A DNA stretch of 64,000 nt from a virus (lineage: Duplodnaviria; Heunggongvirae; Uroviricota; Caudoviricetes): positions 19,119 through 83,118 of the IMG/VR virus record IMGVR_UViG_2506381019_000003, one strand, 5' to 3'. Positions within the stretch are counted from its first letter, which is position 1; every line of letters starts with the position of its first letter. Below the pieces are notes generated by a model. The model had not been told where the DNA came from. It did no database searches and saw only the letters and a program-made list of their open reading frames with translations. Shown here one piece after another: positions 25,828-28,215 of this stretch. Position numbers and translations under genes: made by a program.

Positions 25828-25844
25828 GATTCGTGTTTTGTACT

Positions 25845-25890
25845 GCGAAGCCCCTGTACGGCGCCCAGGAGGGCCGTACAGGGGCTTCGC
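25845..25890 (-). terminator. Strong hairpin with an 18-bp perfect stem (GCGAAGCCCCTGTACGGC / GCCGTACAGGGGCTTCGC), 12 nt after the rsr stop codon.
   Basis: The inverted repeat is visible in the sequence. An A/U-containing tract follows on the minus strand. Confidence 0.65.
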
Positions 25891-25902
25891 TGTCTGCTCC
25901 GG

Positions 25903-27495
25903 TCAGAACGGCCAGCCGCCACCCGCGCGGGCGTCGACCGCGGCGAGCATCTGGAACCCGGCGTCGGTCAGCCCGCCGACGGTGACCCGGTTCCGGCCCG
26001 CTTCGACGTGCGCGGCCCGGTAGCCGCCGACGTTGAACGTGACGAGCGGGACGTCGGGGAGCTTGCCCGGGGAGTCCTGCGCCTGCTCGTCCGTCACGAT
26101 CACGATCCGGCTGTGGCCGGAGTACGTCTGCGCGAGCGTCGTCCAGGTGAGCGTGCCGCCCATGTGCGCGCGGCCGTGCGCCTTCACGAGGGGCAGCAGC
26201 GACGCGCCCGCGGGCAGGTCAATCCGCTCATGGCGCGCGCGCTGCGAACCCCAGGCACCCGTCGAGCCGTACATGTACACGTCGGCGTGCTCGGCGCGGA
26301 GGCCGATGGCGAGGCCGAAGAGGGCGGCAGCTTCGGCGCGACTCAGCGTCGACTTGTCCGACAGCCGGCCGCTCATCGACTGCGACTGGTCGATGAGCAC
26401 CAGCGTGCTACCCGGCAACTTGGGGATGTTGGACAGGCTGTGCCCGATGGCCTGCTCCAGCGGGTACGCCCAGCGCAGCGAGGACACCTCCCGATAGGCG
26501 GTGTAGAAGCGCAGCGGGAACATCCGCGACTTCCTCACCTGCTCGGCGTCCCGCAGGCGCGCGGCGACCAGCTCCGCGACGTCGTCGGGCACGCCGGCCT
26601 GGTCGAAGTTCCGCAGGTTCCTCACCTTGGCGAACAGGCCCATCGACGGGATGACCGCGGACCAGGCCGCGGCATCGAGCGGGCCCCCGAGCCAGCTGGC
26701 GAGTGCCTCCCATGTCATCCCCGCGGCCTTGAGCGTCCCCGCCGCGTCCGGGCCCCACGAGGCGAGCGTGGCGGCACGGTCGGCCGGGGGGATCGCGTCG
26801 AGGTCCTCGCGGGCGGCGAGCATCGGCAGGTTGCCGGTCGCCTTGCCGTCCTTGTGATGCCGGCGGTCGAGGACGTAGCCGTACAGGTCGGCCTGCCAGC
26901 TGGCGGACGGCTTCGGGTGGACGAGGTTCAGCACGTCCCCGAGCCTCCACGGCTGTGCCAGGCCGTCGTACTTCAGCGCGGCGCGCTCGGTGTACAGGCG
27001 GGTGACGGCGTCAGCGAGGCCGCGCTGGACACCGCCGGGCAGGGTCGCACCAGGCCGGCCGGAGAGCCAGTAGGCGATGAACTCGCCGGGCTCGTCTGCG
27101 CGCTGCAGCGTGGAGGCGATGACGGAGCGGACCGTCGGGGCCGCCGCGCGGGCGTCCGGGTCGAGCTCGCGGACGGCGCGGGCGTACTCGGCTGCGGCCA
27201 CGATGCTCGCGGTGCGCATGTTCGCGGTGGTGCGGAGCCAGGGGATCAGCCGCGCGACCCAGCTGGCATCCTCGGCGACGGCCTGGTGGATGAGCTGCAC
27301 GAACCGGTTGTCGCGGTCGGACGCGGCCTCGTGGTGGGTGGCCTCCCCGACCATGTTGGTGATCGCGAGGGTGAAGAGCTCACCCTTCACATCCCGGGAC
27401 CAGCCAGCGCCGCCCATCGCGGTGTGGGTCGGGCTGGTGGTCTGTACGGGGCCGTGTTGGCCGCCGCGGGGGTGCGCCTGCGCGAGCTTGCCCAT
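25903..27495 (-). CDS. rsr: Ro60-related TROVE-domain protein with a C-terminal vWA domain (Rsr orthologue).
   Basis: 530 aa. vWA MIDAS motif 'LVLIDQSQSMSG'. TROVE-like N-terminal region ('AIPPADRAATLASWGPDAA ... RMFPLRFYTAYREV'). Confidence 0.7.
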   Translation of the reverse strand: MGKLAQAHPRGGQHGPVQTTSPTHTAMGGAGWSRDVKGELFTLAITNMVGEATHHEAASDRDNRFVQLIHQAVAEDASWVARLIPWLRTTANMRTASIVAAAEYARAVRELDPDARAAAPTVRSVIASTLQRADEPGEFIAYWLSGRPGATLPGGVQRGLADAVTRLYTERAALKYDGLAQPWRLGDVLNLVHPKPSASWQADLYGYVLDRRHHKDGKATGNLPMLAAREDLDAIPPADRAATLASWGPDAAGTLKAAGMTWEALASWLGGPLDAAAWSAVIPSMGLFAKVRNLRNFDQAGVPDDVAELVAARLRDAEQVRKSRMFPLRFYTAYREVSSLRWAYPLEQAIGHSLSNIPKLPGSTLVLIDQSQSMSGRLSDKSTLSRAEAAALFGLAIGLRAEHADVYMYGSTGAWGSQRARHERIDLPAGASLLPLVKAHGRAHMGGTLTWTTLAQTYSGHSRIVIVTDEQAQDSPGKLPDVPLVTFNVGGYRAAHVEAGRNRVTVGGLTDAGFQMLAAVDARAGGGWPF

Positions 27496-27499
27496 CCGT

Positions 27500-27757
27500 T
27501 CCTCCCAAGTCAGGGGGTACGGACGCGAACGACCCCCGTGCGGGAGACCGAGTACCAGGTGGGCGAGGAGACAAGATCCGACGCGAGCCGGATCCCATTT
27601 GCAGTGGGAAGTATCCCCACCCTTCGCTTCGGTACCCCGCAGGGGGGTCGTAGGCGTCCGAGTACCAGGCGGTCGAAGGCGTCACATCACCAGAAGAAGT
27701 AGCCCTCAACCATTCGCTTCGGACGGCGCTCACGCTACCACAAGACTCGCGAAGCCT
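27500..27757. ncRNA. Candidate Y-RNA-like structured non-coding RNA locus upstream of rsr.
   Basis: About 290 bp of non-coding DNA, unusually long for this genome. Two 20-nt direct repeats (CCGAGTACCAGGYGGKCGAR, near 27549 and 27659) and several short GC hairpins. Rsr genes are commonly adjacent to Y RNA genes. Confidence 0.25.
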
Positions 27758-27786
27758 GCGATTCGTGTTCAGTACTTTCTCGCGGG

Positions 27787-28215
27787 TCAGCGGCTGCGGC
27801 GGAGGGGGGCTTCGTGGTCCCACAGGGCGAGAGTGGACAGGCGCCACCGGCTGGTGCGGCCGGATCCTTCGTCGGGTTCGGGGAGGGTGCCCCGCTCCCC
27901 CGACCGTCGGGCGGAGTCCGGGGTCATGCCGTACCGTTCGGCGACCTCGTCGAGGTCGAGGAGCCGGTCGGGGCCGTCGAGCGGCGGCGGGGGCTGTGTG
28001 GCCGCGTGGTCGCGCTGGTCCGCGCGGGCCTGGCGGACGGTGAGCGCGGCGGACAGCTGCAACGCGCCGGGGGGTACCTCGTCGACAACGTCGCCGACGG
28101 TGGCGGCGTAGCGGGTGACCTCCGCTTCTGCCCAGGCGCGCGCCGCGGCCTCGTCTGCGAACTTGCCGCCCGCGGCGACCTCGCGCCCCGTTGCCGTCGT
28201 GATGAGAATCCGCAT
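27787..28215 (-). CDS. HTH DNA-binding protein (MerR/Xis-like).
   Basis: 'LLDLDEVAERYGMTPDSARR'. The likely start is the internal 'MRILITT'. Confidence 0.4.
   Translation of the reverse strand: MRILITTATGREVAAGGKFADEAAARAWAEAEVTRYAATVGDVVDEVPPGALQLSAALTVRQARADQRDHAATQPPPPLDGPDRLLDLDEVAERYGMTPDSARRSGERGTLPEPDEGSGRTSRWRLSTLALWDHEAPLRRSR

What the first reader, a model, noticed from the sequence alone, without database searches (positions are those of the whole stretch)
25828..27790. Phage-encoded Ro60/TROVE-vWA (Rsr) with a flanking candidate Y-RNA locus.
The 530-aa protein has a vWA MIDAS motif and a TROVE-like N-terminal region. Upstream lies an unusually long, approx. 290-bp non-coding stretch (27496-27786) with two 20-nt direct repeats and multiple short GC hairpins. 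Downstream is an 18-bp-stem terminator. Bacterial and phage rsr genes are characteristically adjacent to Y RNA (YrlA-like, tRNA-like) genes (established). A Y RNA here would be a new actinophage example.
Basis: partly seen in the sequence, partly recalled or inferred. Interest (0 to 1): 0.6.

Follow-up and report, generated by a model that had tools for sequence, protein, structure and literature searches.

The report
Prophage Ro60 gene with two Y RNAs
A prophage in the actinobacterium Parafrankia sp. EUN1f carries a Ro60 (Rsr) RNA-binding protein gene, and just upstream lie two tandem genes for hairpin-shaped Y RNAs, a known partnership that here lacks the usual tRNA-like domain.

Summary
ORF 25903-27495 (-) is a full-length Ro60/Rsr orthologue: Pfam TROVE, a DxSxS MIDAS motif at residues 369-373, and a predicted fold matching solved Ro60 structures. 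It lies inside a prophage of Parafrankia sp. EUN1f.

The 291-nt spacer upstream (27496-27786) contains two tandem Y-RNA modules on the rsr strand. M1 is about 27724-27656. M2 has its core at 27639-27541 and extends to 27660-27520 through a 32-nt basal stem.

A covariance model built from 14 relatives found M2 independently (E = 3e-6). It gave 195 hits in about 240 related rsr loci, all on the rsr strand and all upstream of rsr, with strong compensatory base changes.

Rfam Y_RNA and YrlA models give no hit. Neither module has tRNA-like T or D arms, so these are not YrlA. In the closest relatives, the module homologous to M2 carries those arms. In EUN1f an 18-20-nt hairpin takes their place.

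The closest studied analogue is Thermus phage phiLo Ro60 with Yrl1 and Yrl2. This is a new member of a known kind. Expression and Rsr binding remain untested.

The parts
25903..27495 (-). rsr: Ro60/Rsr orthologue, 530 aa (TROVE HEAT-repeat ring plus vWA domain with MIDAS D369xS371xS373)
   Evidence: The AlphaFold2 model (pLDDT 86.8) matches phiLo Ro60 (9kop/9l5y), Xenopus and human Ro60, and D. radiodurans Rsr at TM 0.6-0.7.
27651..27729 (-). Y RNA module M1, a short hairpin type. Stem I is GUCCGA 27724-27719 with UCGGAC 27661-27656. The 5' motif CCGAAGCGAA and the 9-bp stem II follow. The loop begins CUACUUC. The 3' motif is CCUGGUACUCGG.
   Evidence: It aligns with the first module of 13 related loci. 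Covariation is seen in both stems. The model R1 hit scores 75.2 bits, but M1 was in the training set. Fold z = -2.76 on the - strand and -1.09 on the + strand.
27520..27660 (-). Y RNA module M2. The core is 27639-27541, with the same 5' and 3' motifs and a 9-bp stem II. The apex holds a V-like hairpin at 27608-27594 and the hairpin GAUCCGGCUCGCGUCGGAUC at 27594-27575. A 32-nt basal stem (27660-27629 with 27551-27520) encloses the core. There is no T or D arm.
   Evidence: R1 scores 35.3 bits, E = 3.3e-6, and M2 was not in the training set. The inverted repeat is I1. MFE is -86.5 kcal/mol, z = -7.55. Its own flanks form a duplex of -45.4 kcal/mol against -13.5 with flanks of other loci. It is homologous to the last module of L088, L086, L085, L083, L090 and L087 but lacks about 60 nt of T-arm/acceptor-like/D-arm sequence.
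27732..27740 (-). Candidate extended -10 promoter element TGGTAGCGT. It ends 7 nt upstream of M1 stem I.
   Evidence: Read from the sequence. A TANNNT hexamer lies at the same offset in front of the first module in the closest loci. Several of them have TTGACA 17-18 nt upstream, for example L093, L094 and L162. The generic sigma-70 scan found nothing. This is an inference.
27759..27776 (.). Half-site of an operator-like palindrome, overlapping the -35 region of the candidate Y-RNA promoter. It forms an 18-nt direct repeat with 25827-25844, so the Y-rsr cassette is bracketed.
27501..27506 (-). Shine-Dalgarno GGGAGG of rsr, 5 nt before the ATG and 13 nt after the end of the M2 basal stem. No terminator lies between M2 and rsr.
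25842..25893 (-). Terminator-like GC-rich hairpin 9 nt after the rsr stop codon: 21-nt arms with 20 pairs and a 10-nt loop, with no U-run.
   Evidence: (I2). Most close relatives also have a strong hairpin of unrelated sequence directly after the rsr stop.
25817..25843 (.). Full operator-like palindrome GTACATTCCACGATTCGTGTTTTGTAC immediately after the terminator hairpin.
   Evidence: four such sites in the window against 0.13 expected by chance.

Best explanation
The spacer is a Y-RNA locus belonging to a prophage-encoded Ro60 (Rsr).

**Transcription and processing (inferred).** A promoter (extended -10 TGGTAGCGT) starts transcription a few nucleotides before M1. One transcript runs through M1, M2 and rsr to the hairpin after rsr. 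The two modules are then cut out of this precursor. Y RNAs upstream of rsr are processed this way in M. smegmatis and D. radiodurans. The roughly 30-bp basal stem of M2 is a plausible RNase III site.

**Module plan (shown).** Each module folds in this order:
- stem I (CCGA with UCGG);
- an asymmetric internal loop carrying CGAAGCGAA on the 5' side and CUGGUAC on the 3' side;
- a 9-bp stem II;
- an apical part that begins YUACUUC.

**Function (inferred).** Rsr binds the CGAA-containing stem and loop. The RNA then gates the Rsr ring or tethers it to an exoribonuclease such as host PNPase, as in the D. radiodurans and phage phiLo complexes.

**Difference from most related loci (shown).** Neither RNA has a tRNA-like domain. 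M2 derives from a tRNA-like module in which the T arm, acceptor-like stem and D arm have been replaced by a simple hairpin.

Shown: the protein family, the module anatomy, the homology, the covariation, and the strand and position bias. Inferred: the transcription start, processing, Rsr binding and the downstream function.
For: **Protein.**
- Pfam TROVE.
- A profile of homologues hits Ro60 and Rsr structures 9kop, 9nen, 1yvp and 2nvo.
- The predicted fold matches full-length Ro60 with probability 1.00.

**RNA modules.**
- The upstream regions of Frankia R82, Frankia CN7, Pseudofrankia and metagenomic relatives align with the spacer. They carry the same motifs in tandem modules.
- In those relatives Rfam YrlA hits the tRNA-like modules at 39-43 bits, E about 1e-6, below the gathering score of 69.
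- On a hand-made alignment of 14 first modules, 91.3% of cells pair. Seven of 15 pairs show double changes, 0 of 500 shuffles reach this, and slid controls give 33-56%.
- On 79 distinct model-aligned sequences, 94.6% of cells pair and 13 of 15 pairs show double changes.
- Model R1 finds M2 at E = 3.3e-6 although M2 was not used to build it.
- R1 gives 81 + 65 + 49 = 195 hits at E <= 1e-3 in related loci. Every hit is on the rsr strand and upstream of rsr. It also hits cultured Streptomyces phages GiJojo and BRock.
- M2 folds with z = -7.55.
- An IMG/VR contig (L240, Rsr 42% identical) has the same pairing of a short module with a hairpin-insert module, and no T arm.

**Literature.**
- Y RNAs lie within 4 kb of rsr on the same strand, carry a CGAA motif and are processed from one precursor (PMC4201824).
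- Phage phiLo Ro60 binds two upstream hairpin RNAs that carry CGAA motifs, and the RNAs and protein form complexes with host PNPase (PMC12135203).
Against: - There are no expression data. No tool here shows a stable small transcript or Rsr binding.
- Rfam Y_RNA and YrlA give no hit.
- The published motif GNCGAAN0-1G is matched only from its third position: M1 has U and M2 has A where the motif has its first G.
- The -35 region of the candidate promoter is poor, and the generic promoter scan found nothing.
- The large covariation alignment was fitted to the model, so it leans towards that structure.
- M1 and M2 share 5 nt (CGGAC, 27660-27656). M1 stem I and the outermost part of the M2 basal stem therefore cannot both form in one molecule.
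- Loss of the tRNA-like domain could mean the locus is decaying.
Confidence: 0.8

Rival explanations
1. The structures act only in cis, as a 5' leader of the rsr mRNA. For example, they could be Rsr autoregulatory binding sites or stability elements, and they do not accumulate as separate small RNAs.
For: No terminator lies between M2 and rsr. The M2 basal stem ends 13 nt before the Shine-Dalgarno sequence. In relatives, a conserved hairpin overlaps the Shine-Dalgarno sequence just before the start codon.
Against: In M. smegmatis and D. radiodurans, equivalent RNAs upstream of rsr are cut from a precursor and bound by Rsr (PMC4201824). The modules are self-contained hairpins whose number and order vary between loci. 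That pattern fits independent RNA units. The two roles do not exclude each other.
Confidence: 0.12
2. The locus is a decaying remnant. The prophage lost its functional tRNA-like YrlA, and the remaining modules are non-functional relics.
For: 215 of 232 related loci keep a T arm on the rsr strand. The module homologous to M2 in the closest relatives has T and D arms. No YrlA-type element is present anywhere in the 64-kb window.
Against: The protein-binding motifs are intact and nearly identical in both modules. All stems pair, including a 32-nt basal stem at 84% complementarity and a clean 6-bp replacement hairpin. The rsr ORF is intact, with GC3 of 0.95. The same T-arm-less architecture recurs in a distant phage contig. 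Phage phiLo works with two simple hairpin Y RNAs (PMC12135203).
Confidence: 0.06
3. The repeats are DNA-level elements, such as operator or attachment sites or recombination scars of a gene cassette, and not RNA genes.
For: An 18-nt direct repeat (25827-25844 and 27759-27776) brackets the Y-rsr cassette. It belongs to a palindrome family found four times in the prophage.
Against: That repeat lies outside M1 and M2. The internal repeats show compensatory base-pair changes and G-U pairs. They also show a complete strand bias relative to rsr across 195 hits. DNA sites would not be expected to show these features.
Confidence: 0.02

Closest known systems
Thermus phage phiLo Ro60 with Yrl1 and Yrl2 (PMC12135203; PDB 9KOP, 9L5Y)
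   Same: It is a phage-encoded Ro60. Two hairpin Y-RNA-like elements with CGAA motifs lie in the non-coding region directly upstream of the gene. The paper describes no tRNA-like domain. phiLo Ro60 is the best solved-structure match to the EUN1f protein by sequence (E = 1e-20) and by fold.
   Different: Protein identity is only about 21-24%. The host and phage lineage differ (Thermus, not an actinobacterium). I could not compare the RNA sequences. EUN1f is a temperate prophage. Binding and PNPase complex formation are shown for phiLo and only inferred here.
[quoted passage not shown]
   Same: They are encoded upstream of rsr on the same strand. Those of M. smegmatis and D. radiodurans are made as part of a polycistronic precursor. 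[quoted passage not shown]
   Different: In those species a tRNA-like partner (YrlA or Yrn1) accompanies the hairpin. No such partner is present near the EUN1f rsr or anywhere in the window.
YrlA (Rfam RF02553), the tRNA-like Y RNA of many bacteria and mycobacteriophages
   Same: The basal architecture is the same: stem I with CGA/UCG, an asymmetric internal loop, stem II, then YUAY. EUN1f M2 is homologous to modules that contain a T arm (GCGGGUUCGAAUCCCGC) and a D arm in the closest relatives.
   Different: The T arm, acceptor-like stem and D arm that define the family are absent from both EUN1f modules. Rfam gives no hit at any threshold.
Metazoan Y RNAs bound by Ro60
   Same: The 5' and 3' ends pair in a stem that carries the Ro site. 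M1 has GUCCGA, which matches the GGUCCGA contacted by Xenopus Ro60 (PMC4201824).
   Different: Metazoan Y RNAs are separate RNA polymerase III genes. There is no sequence homology beyond the short motif, and the apical loops differ.

Membership tests
Ro60 / Rsr protein family | TROVE (HEAT-repeat ring) domain | tested here: met
   Pfam PF05731 scores E = 2.5e-12, above its cut-off. A profile of 20 homologues hits Ro60 and Rsr PDB chains over residues of about 108-518.
Ro60 / Rsr protein family | C-terminal vWA domain with a MIDAS motif (DxSxS ... T ... D) | tested here: met
   D369-Q-S371-Q-S373 is present, and T448 and D469 are invariant in homologues. The model shows an alpha/beta fold over residues 360-507, and secondary Foldseek hits are vWA domains. 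Pfam VWA_2 is only weak, at E = 0.15.
Ro60 / Rsr protein family | Overall ring-plus-vWA fold like solved Ro60 structures | tested here: met
   The AlphaFold2 model has pLDDT 86.8 and pTM 0.83. Foldseek gives probability 1.00 and TM 0.57-0.71 to 9kop, 9l5y, 9nep, 1yvp, 1yvr and 2nvo over about 520-560 columns.
Bacterial Y RNA (sensu Chen et al. 2014, PMC4201824) | Encoded within 4 kb of rsr on the same strand | tested here: met
   M1 and M2 lie 25-235 nt upstream of the rsr ATG on the - strand. All 195 homologous hits in related loci are on the rsr strand and upstream of rsr.
Bacterial Y RNA (sensu Chen et al. 2014, PMC4201824) | 5'-proximal Ro-site motif GNCGAAN0-1G (CGAA core) | tested here: inconclusive
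   Both modules have CCGAAGCGAA, so the CGAAG core is present. The first G of the published motif is U in M1 (UCCGAAG) and A in M2 (ACCGAAG). The tRNA-like modules of relatives have GCCGAAG, which matches exactly. M1 also matches GUCCGA of the vertebrate site.
Bacterial Y RNA (sensu Chen et al. 2014, PMC4201824) | 5' and 3' ends pair to form a stem that encloses the Ro site, with an internal loop | tested here: met
   Stems I and II are supported by compensatory changes. M2 has an additional 32-nt basal stem.
Bacterial Y RNA (sensu Chen et al. 2014, PMC4201824) | Stable small RNA that is bound by Rsr in vivo | not testable with these tools
   This needs a Northern blot or RNA-seq, plus Rsr immunoprecipitation or EMSA.
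YrlA (Rfam RF02553) | tRNA-like domain: T arm (GGUUCGAnnCC loop and stem), acceptor-like stem and D arm (GUAGCUCA...) | tested here: not met
   No T-arm-like hairpin lies near rsr. Only three loose chance matches occur, each more than 19 kb away. ARAGORN finds nothing in the window. The alignment shows that the roughly 60-nt tRNA-like block of relatives is missing from M2.
YrlA (Rfam RF02553) | Score at or above the Rfam gathering threshold (69 bits) | tested here: not met
   No YrlA hit at the gathering score, at E <= 1 on the whole window, or at E <= 10 on 27450-27800. The relatives L081, L083 and L085 score 39-43 bits, also below the threshold.
Intrinsic (Rho-independent) terminator | GC-rich hairpin followed by a U-run | tested here: inconclusive
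   The hairpin is strong, with 20 of 21 pairs. The sequence after it on the rsr strand is UACAAAACACG, with no U-run. A hairpin at this position is conserved in relatives.

The most novel reading that the evidence does not exclude
The EUN1f prophage may run a minimal Ro60 ribonucleoprotein with two hairpin Y RNAs and no tRNA mimic. The tRNA-like domain of the ancestral module was cleanly replaced by a stable hairpin. A similar architecture seen in a distant phage contig (L240) would then show that tRNA mimicry is dispensable for phage Ro60 function.

The cassette also appears wired into the phage's own regulatory network. An operator-like half-site sits over the -35 region of its promoter, and a full site follows its terminator. 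Together with the prophage's RNA ligase and polynucleotide kinase pair, it could form a phage RNA-repair or RNA-turnover toolkit used during induction or against host anti-phage nucleases.
Probability: 0.25. Interest if true: 0.45.

Novelty: new member of a known kind. Interest (0 to 1): 0.3.

Why it matters
- **Annotation.** The locus adds a Frankia-group prophage to the list of phages that carry Ro60 with its Y RNAs. It also shows that these RNAs are invisible to Rfam and go unannotated. The core module defined here (CCGAAGYGMA - stem - YUACUUC ... CUGGUWCUCGG) picked up 195 sites in actinobacterial and actinophage rsr loci, including cultured Streptomyces phages, so it could be used to annotate them.
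- **A natural experiment.** EUN1f keeps the Ro-binding scaffold of a YrlA-type module but has lost the tRNA-like domain. The function of that domain is still an open question, so comparing this RNA with its tRNA-like relatives could help to test what the domain contributes.
- **Limit.** The Ro60-Y RNA partnership, its presence in phages, and hairpin-only phage Y RNAs are already published. The finding is confirmatory rather than surprising.

Tried and rejected
- **Rfam.** I ran the gathering threshold on the whole window, E <= 10 on 25000-28500, E <= 1 on the whole window, and E <= 10 on 27450-27800. The only matches were chance miRNA hits on hairpins and a malK-III match at E = 5.
- **ARAGORN.** No tRNA or tmRNA in the window.
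- **DNA similarity to 50,697 phage records.** Megablast of 25800-27800 and blastn of the spacer gave no match.
- **Generic sigma-70 scan.** No promoter was found. The only terminator-like hit (27747-27761, + strand) is a 5-bp stem at chance level.
- **Exact 16-mer from M2 (GGATACTTCCCACTGC) in viral contigs.** Six hits, all unrelated low-GC sequences.
- **Flank-pairing test across all 81 model hits.** Own flanks were not significantly better than foreign flanks overall (-14.0 against -12.0 kcal/mol, p = 0.095). An extended basal stem is a feature of certain modules such as M2, mostly the longer or rsr-proximal ones, and not of all modules.
- **Y RNA in the downstream region 25800-25910.** Rejected. 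It is only a hairpin, and neither R1 nor Rfam supports more.
- **R1 match at 37779-37822 (16.7 bits, E = 0.075).** Taken as chance, because it lacks stem II.
- **Literature access.** The supplementary tables of Chen et al. 2014 and the 2020 Annual Review on bacterial Ro60 were not available.
- **Genome-contig scan.** The back-translated peptide patterns missed the Frankia relatives. I retrieved those through exact-protein look-ups instead.
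Full report
**1. What is in the sequence**

ORF 25903..27495 on the - strand encodes a 530-aa protein. Its third-codon-position GC is 0.95, which is typical of a real gene in this 71% GC DNA. The next ORF upstream on the same strand, 27787..28290, matches a phage DNA-binding protein family (phrog_597, E = 4e-65). This leaves a spacer of 291 nt, 27496-27786.

One pair is 27543-27566 and 27653-27676 (24 nt, 83%). The other is 27619-27632 and 27709-27722 (14 nt, 93%). It also contains a 32-nt inverted repeat, 27520-27551 with 27629-27660, at 84% complementarity.

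Nine nucleotides after the rsr stop codon lies a hairpin with 21-nt arms (25842-25862 and 25873-25893, 95% complementary) and a 10-nt loop. No U-run follows it on the rsr strand.

**2. The protein is a Ro60/Rsr orthologue**

- Pfam TROVE matches at E = 2.5e-12.
- The MIDAS signature D369-x-S371-x-S373 is present. T448 and D469 are invariant among 20 homologues.
- A profile of those homologues hits the solved structures of phage phiLo Ro60 (E = 4e-44), human and Xenopus Ro60, and D. radiodurans Rsr.
- An AlphaFold2 model (pLDDT 86.8, pTM 0.83) superposes on all of these over about 520-560 columns. Probability is 1.00 and TM is 0.57-0.71. The next-best hits are isolated vWA domains.

**3. It is prophage-borne**

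The protein is 100% identical to an NCBI entry from Parafrankia sp. EUN1f. The window carries these phage genes:

| Gene | Coordinates |
|---|---|
| tail fibre | 2395-3420 |
| major head | 4223-5056 |
| minor head | 10391-11560 |
| peptidase | 11743-12564 |
| portal | 12585-14300 |
| large terminase | 17264-18595 |
| replication-initiator-like | 51885-52889 |
| integrase | 62504-64000 |

The rsr gene therefore sits in the middle of a temperate prophage. Cultured actinophages carry Ro-like proteins that are 35-42% identical.

**4. The spacer is a tandem Y-RNA locus**

I retrieved the closest rsr loci by exact-protein look-up. These were Frankia sp. R82, Frankia sp. CN7, Pseudofrankia asymbiotica and several metagenomic, phage-like contigs. 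Each has 300-630 nt of non-coding DNA upstream of rsr that aligns with the EUN1f spacer.

That DNA is built of tandem modules with one plan:
- 5' NN-CCGA-N-G-Y-G-M-A;
- a variable helix strand;
- Y-U-A-C-U-U-C;
- a variable insert;
- the complementary helix strand;
- C-U-G-G-U-W-C-U-C-G-G-NN 3'.

The first module in each locus is a hairpin of about 70 nt. The later modules carry a tRNA-like block with three parts:
- a T arm (GCGGGUUCGAAUCCCGC);
- an acceptor-like stem-loop;
- a D arm (GGUAGCUCAG... or GUCGUCUAGCGG...).

Rfam YrlA (RF02553) hits those later modules at 39-43 bits (E about 1e-6). This is below its gathering score of 69. ARAGORN even calls two of them tRNAs.

EUN1f has two modules:
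- M1 spans 27729-27651 as the model hit. Its stem I is 27724-27719 with 27661-27656.
- M2 has its core at 27639-27541.

**5. Structure and statistics**

On a hand-made MAFFT alignment of 14 first modules, I proposed a 6-bp stem I and a 9-bp stem II. Of all cells, 91.3% form standard pairs. Seven of the 15 pairs show changes on both sides. None of 500 column shuffles reaches this, and sliding the partner by 1-3 columns gives only 33-56% pairing.

I built a covariance model, R1, from that alignment. In the window it finds M1, which was part of its training set, at 75 bits. It also finds M2, which was not in the training set, at 35.3 bits and E = 3.3e-6. Nothing else in the 64 kb is convincing.

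Across the related loci fetched from genomes, metagenomes and IMG/VR, R1 gives 81 + 65 + 49 = 195 hits at E <= 1e-3. Every hit is on the rsr strand and upstream of rsr, although both strands and the downstream flanks were searched. The cultured Streptomyces phages GiJojo and BRock also have hits just upstream of their Ro-like genes.

On 79 distinct model-aligned sequences, 94.6% of cells pair and 13 of 15 pairs show double changes. This alignment was fitted to the model, so it leans towards that structure.

M2 together with its basal stem (27518-27662, - strand) folds to -86.5 kcal/mol with z = -7.55. Its own flanks form a duplex of -45.4 kcal/mol, against -13.5 with flanks taken from other loci. 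M1 folds better on the - strand (z = -2.76) than on the + strand (z = -1.09).

**6. No tRNA-like domain**

- A strict T-arm search (5-bp stem, G-TTCRANN-C) finds nothing in the whole window on either strand.
- A relaxed search finds three loose matches, each more than 19 kb from rsr.
- Rfam gives no YrlA, Y_RNA or tRNA hit at any threshold, including E <= 10 on 27450-27800 alone.
- By contrast, 215 of 232 related loci have a strict T arm on the rsr strand within 1 kb upstream. Only 2 have one on the other strand.

M2 aligns with the last module of L088, L086, L085, L083, L090 and L087. The two ends align, including the V-like hairpin CCCACUGCAAAUGGG and CUUGUCUCCUC. The roughly 60-nt block of T arm, acceptor-like stem and D arm is replaced by GAUCCGGCUCGCGUCGGAUC, a 6-bp hairpin.

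I sorted the 81 hits of the first search by size:

| Size | Hits | With a T arm |
|---|---|---|
| 88 nt or shorter | 63 | 2 |
| 89-125 nt | 6 | 4 |
| longer than 125 nt | 12 | 12 |

M2 is one of the two intermediate-size modules without a T arm. The IMG/VR contig L240, whose Rsr is 42% identical, has the same pairing of a short module with a hairpin-insert module enclosed by a long basal stem. The architecture therefore recurs and is probably functional.

**7. Likely mechanism**

The following rests on established work (PMC4201824):
- Bacterial Y RNAs lie near rsr on the same strand.
- They carry a CGAA-type motif that Ro60 contacts.
- In M. smegmatis and D. radiodurans they are cut from a polycistronic precursor.
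- They tether Rsr to PNPase.

Phage phiLo Ro60 binds two upstream hairpin RNAs that carry CGAA motifs. The RNAs and the protein form complexes with host PNPase (PMC12135203).

For EUN1f I infer the following steps:
- An extended -10 element, TGGTAGCGT (27740-27732), starts transcription about 7 nt downstream, at the foot of M1. A TANNNT hexamer sits at the same offset in the closest loci. Several of them have TTGACA 17-18 nt further upstream.
- Transcription runs through M1, M2 and rsr to the hairpin at 25893-25842. No terminator lies between M2 and rsr.
- RNases release the modules. The roughly 30-bp M2 basal stem looks like an RNase III substrate.
- Rsr binds the CGAA loop and stem.

None of these steps could be tested here.

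**8. Comparison with known families, and novelty**

The protein meets all the Ro60 criteria that I could test. The RNAs meet the Y-RNA criteria for location, strand and paired ends. The published motif GNCGAAN0-1G is matched except for its first G. The RNAs fail both defining features of YrlA, so I do not file them there.

They are closest to the hairpin-type Y RNAs (YrlB, Yrn2, phiLo Yrl1 and Yrl2). Phage Y RNAs have been known since 2014, when 22 phages were reported (PMC4201824). A phage Ro60 with two simple Y-like hairpins was characterised in 2025 (PMC12135203). This is therefore a new member of a known kind.

Two things are useful beyond that. The core-module model detects what Rfam misses. 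EUN1f also offers a natural, clean deletion of the tRNA-like domain.

**9. Rivals**

- A purely cis-acting leader is possible and is compatible with the main reading (0.12).
- A decaying relic is unlikely, given the intact motifs, stems and ORF and the recurrence of the architecture (0.06).
- DNA-level repeats are excluded for M1 and M2 by the covariation and the strand bias (0.02).

A separate DNA palindrome family does flank the cassette; see the items noticed in passing.

Noticed in passing
window 25817-25843, 53118-53144, 56464-56490, 60947-60973; half-site 27759-27776: An operator-like 27-bp palindrome, GTAC-N5-ACGA-N-TCGT-N5-GTAC, occurs four times in the prophage against 0.13 expected by chance. 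The three sites outside the rsr cassette lie in apparent intergenic gaps. One full site directly follows the rsr hairpin. A half-site overlaps the -35 region of the candidate Y-RNA promoter. Together these two give an 18-nt direct repeat that brackets the Y-rsr cassette. It may be a repressor or regulator operator ('stoperator'-like). The adjacent gene 27787-28290 encodes a phage DNA-binding protein (phrog_597).
   Followed up: partly
window 42712-43950 (-) and 43950-44999 (-): A T4 Rnl1-type RNA ligase (Pfam RNA_lig_T4_1, phrog_562) and a polynucleotide kinase (phrog_505, E = 3e-79) are adjacent in the same prophage. Together they form an RNA-repair pair of the kind that phage T4 uses against host anticodon nucleases. 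With rsr and the Y RNAs, the prophage carries a notable RNA-maintenance gene set, although these genes lie 15 kb from rsr.
   Followed up: no
L083 2821-2893; L085 2818-2890; L256 (phage GiJojo) 1269-1343; L257 (phage VanLee) 1204-1275: ARAGORN and the Rfam tRNA model call 'tRNA-Asp' and 'tRNA-Pro' on stretches that are really the 5' Ro-site strand plus the T arm of Y-RNA modules. In cultured actinophages, a 'tRNA-Arg' is annotated 160-230 nt upstream of the Ro-like gene. In GiJojo it lies directly after an R1 Y-module hit. Some annotated phage tRNAs next to Ro genes may therefore be tRNA-like Y-RNA domains.
   Followed up: partly
L088 3787-5651 (JGI contig Ga0633523_0000015, 107 kb): In this relative (Rsr 64% identical), rsr with three Y modules is followed directly by genes with CRISPR_assoc and Csf1 (type IV CRISPR-Cas) Pfam hits, on a phage- or plasmid-like contig.
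   Followed up: no
just upstream of the rsr start in L083, L085, L086, L087, L090 and L093 (for example L086 1462-1493); window 27496-27520: Relatives share a short hairpin, GGCRUCCCC-N5-9-GGGGA, whose 3' arm is the Shine-Dalgarno sequence, directly before the rsr start codon. This may be a translational control element. In EUN1f the equivalent stretch (CCCCCUGACUUGGGAGG) pairs only weakly.
   Followed up: no
window 46283-46348: A symmetric hairpin gives weak miRNA-model matches on both strands (mir-486, E = 0.3). It is probably another terminator-like palindrome between prophage genes.
   Followed up: no
window 27660-27656: The 3' strand of M1 stem I (UCGGAC) and the outer 5' arm of the M2 basal stem (CGGACGCC...) share 5 nt. 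The two helices compete in an unprocessed precursor. This could impose an order on folding or processing.
   Followed up: no
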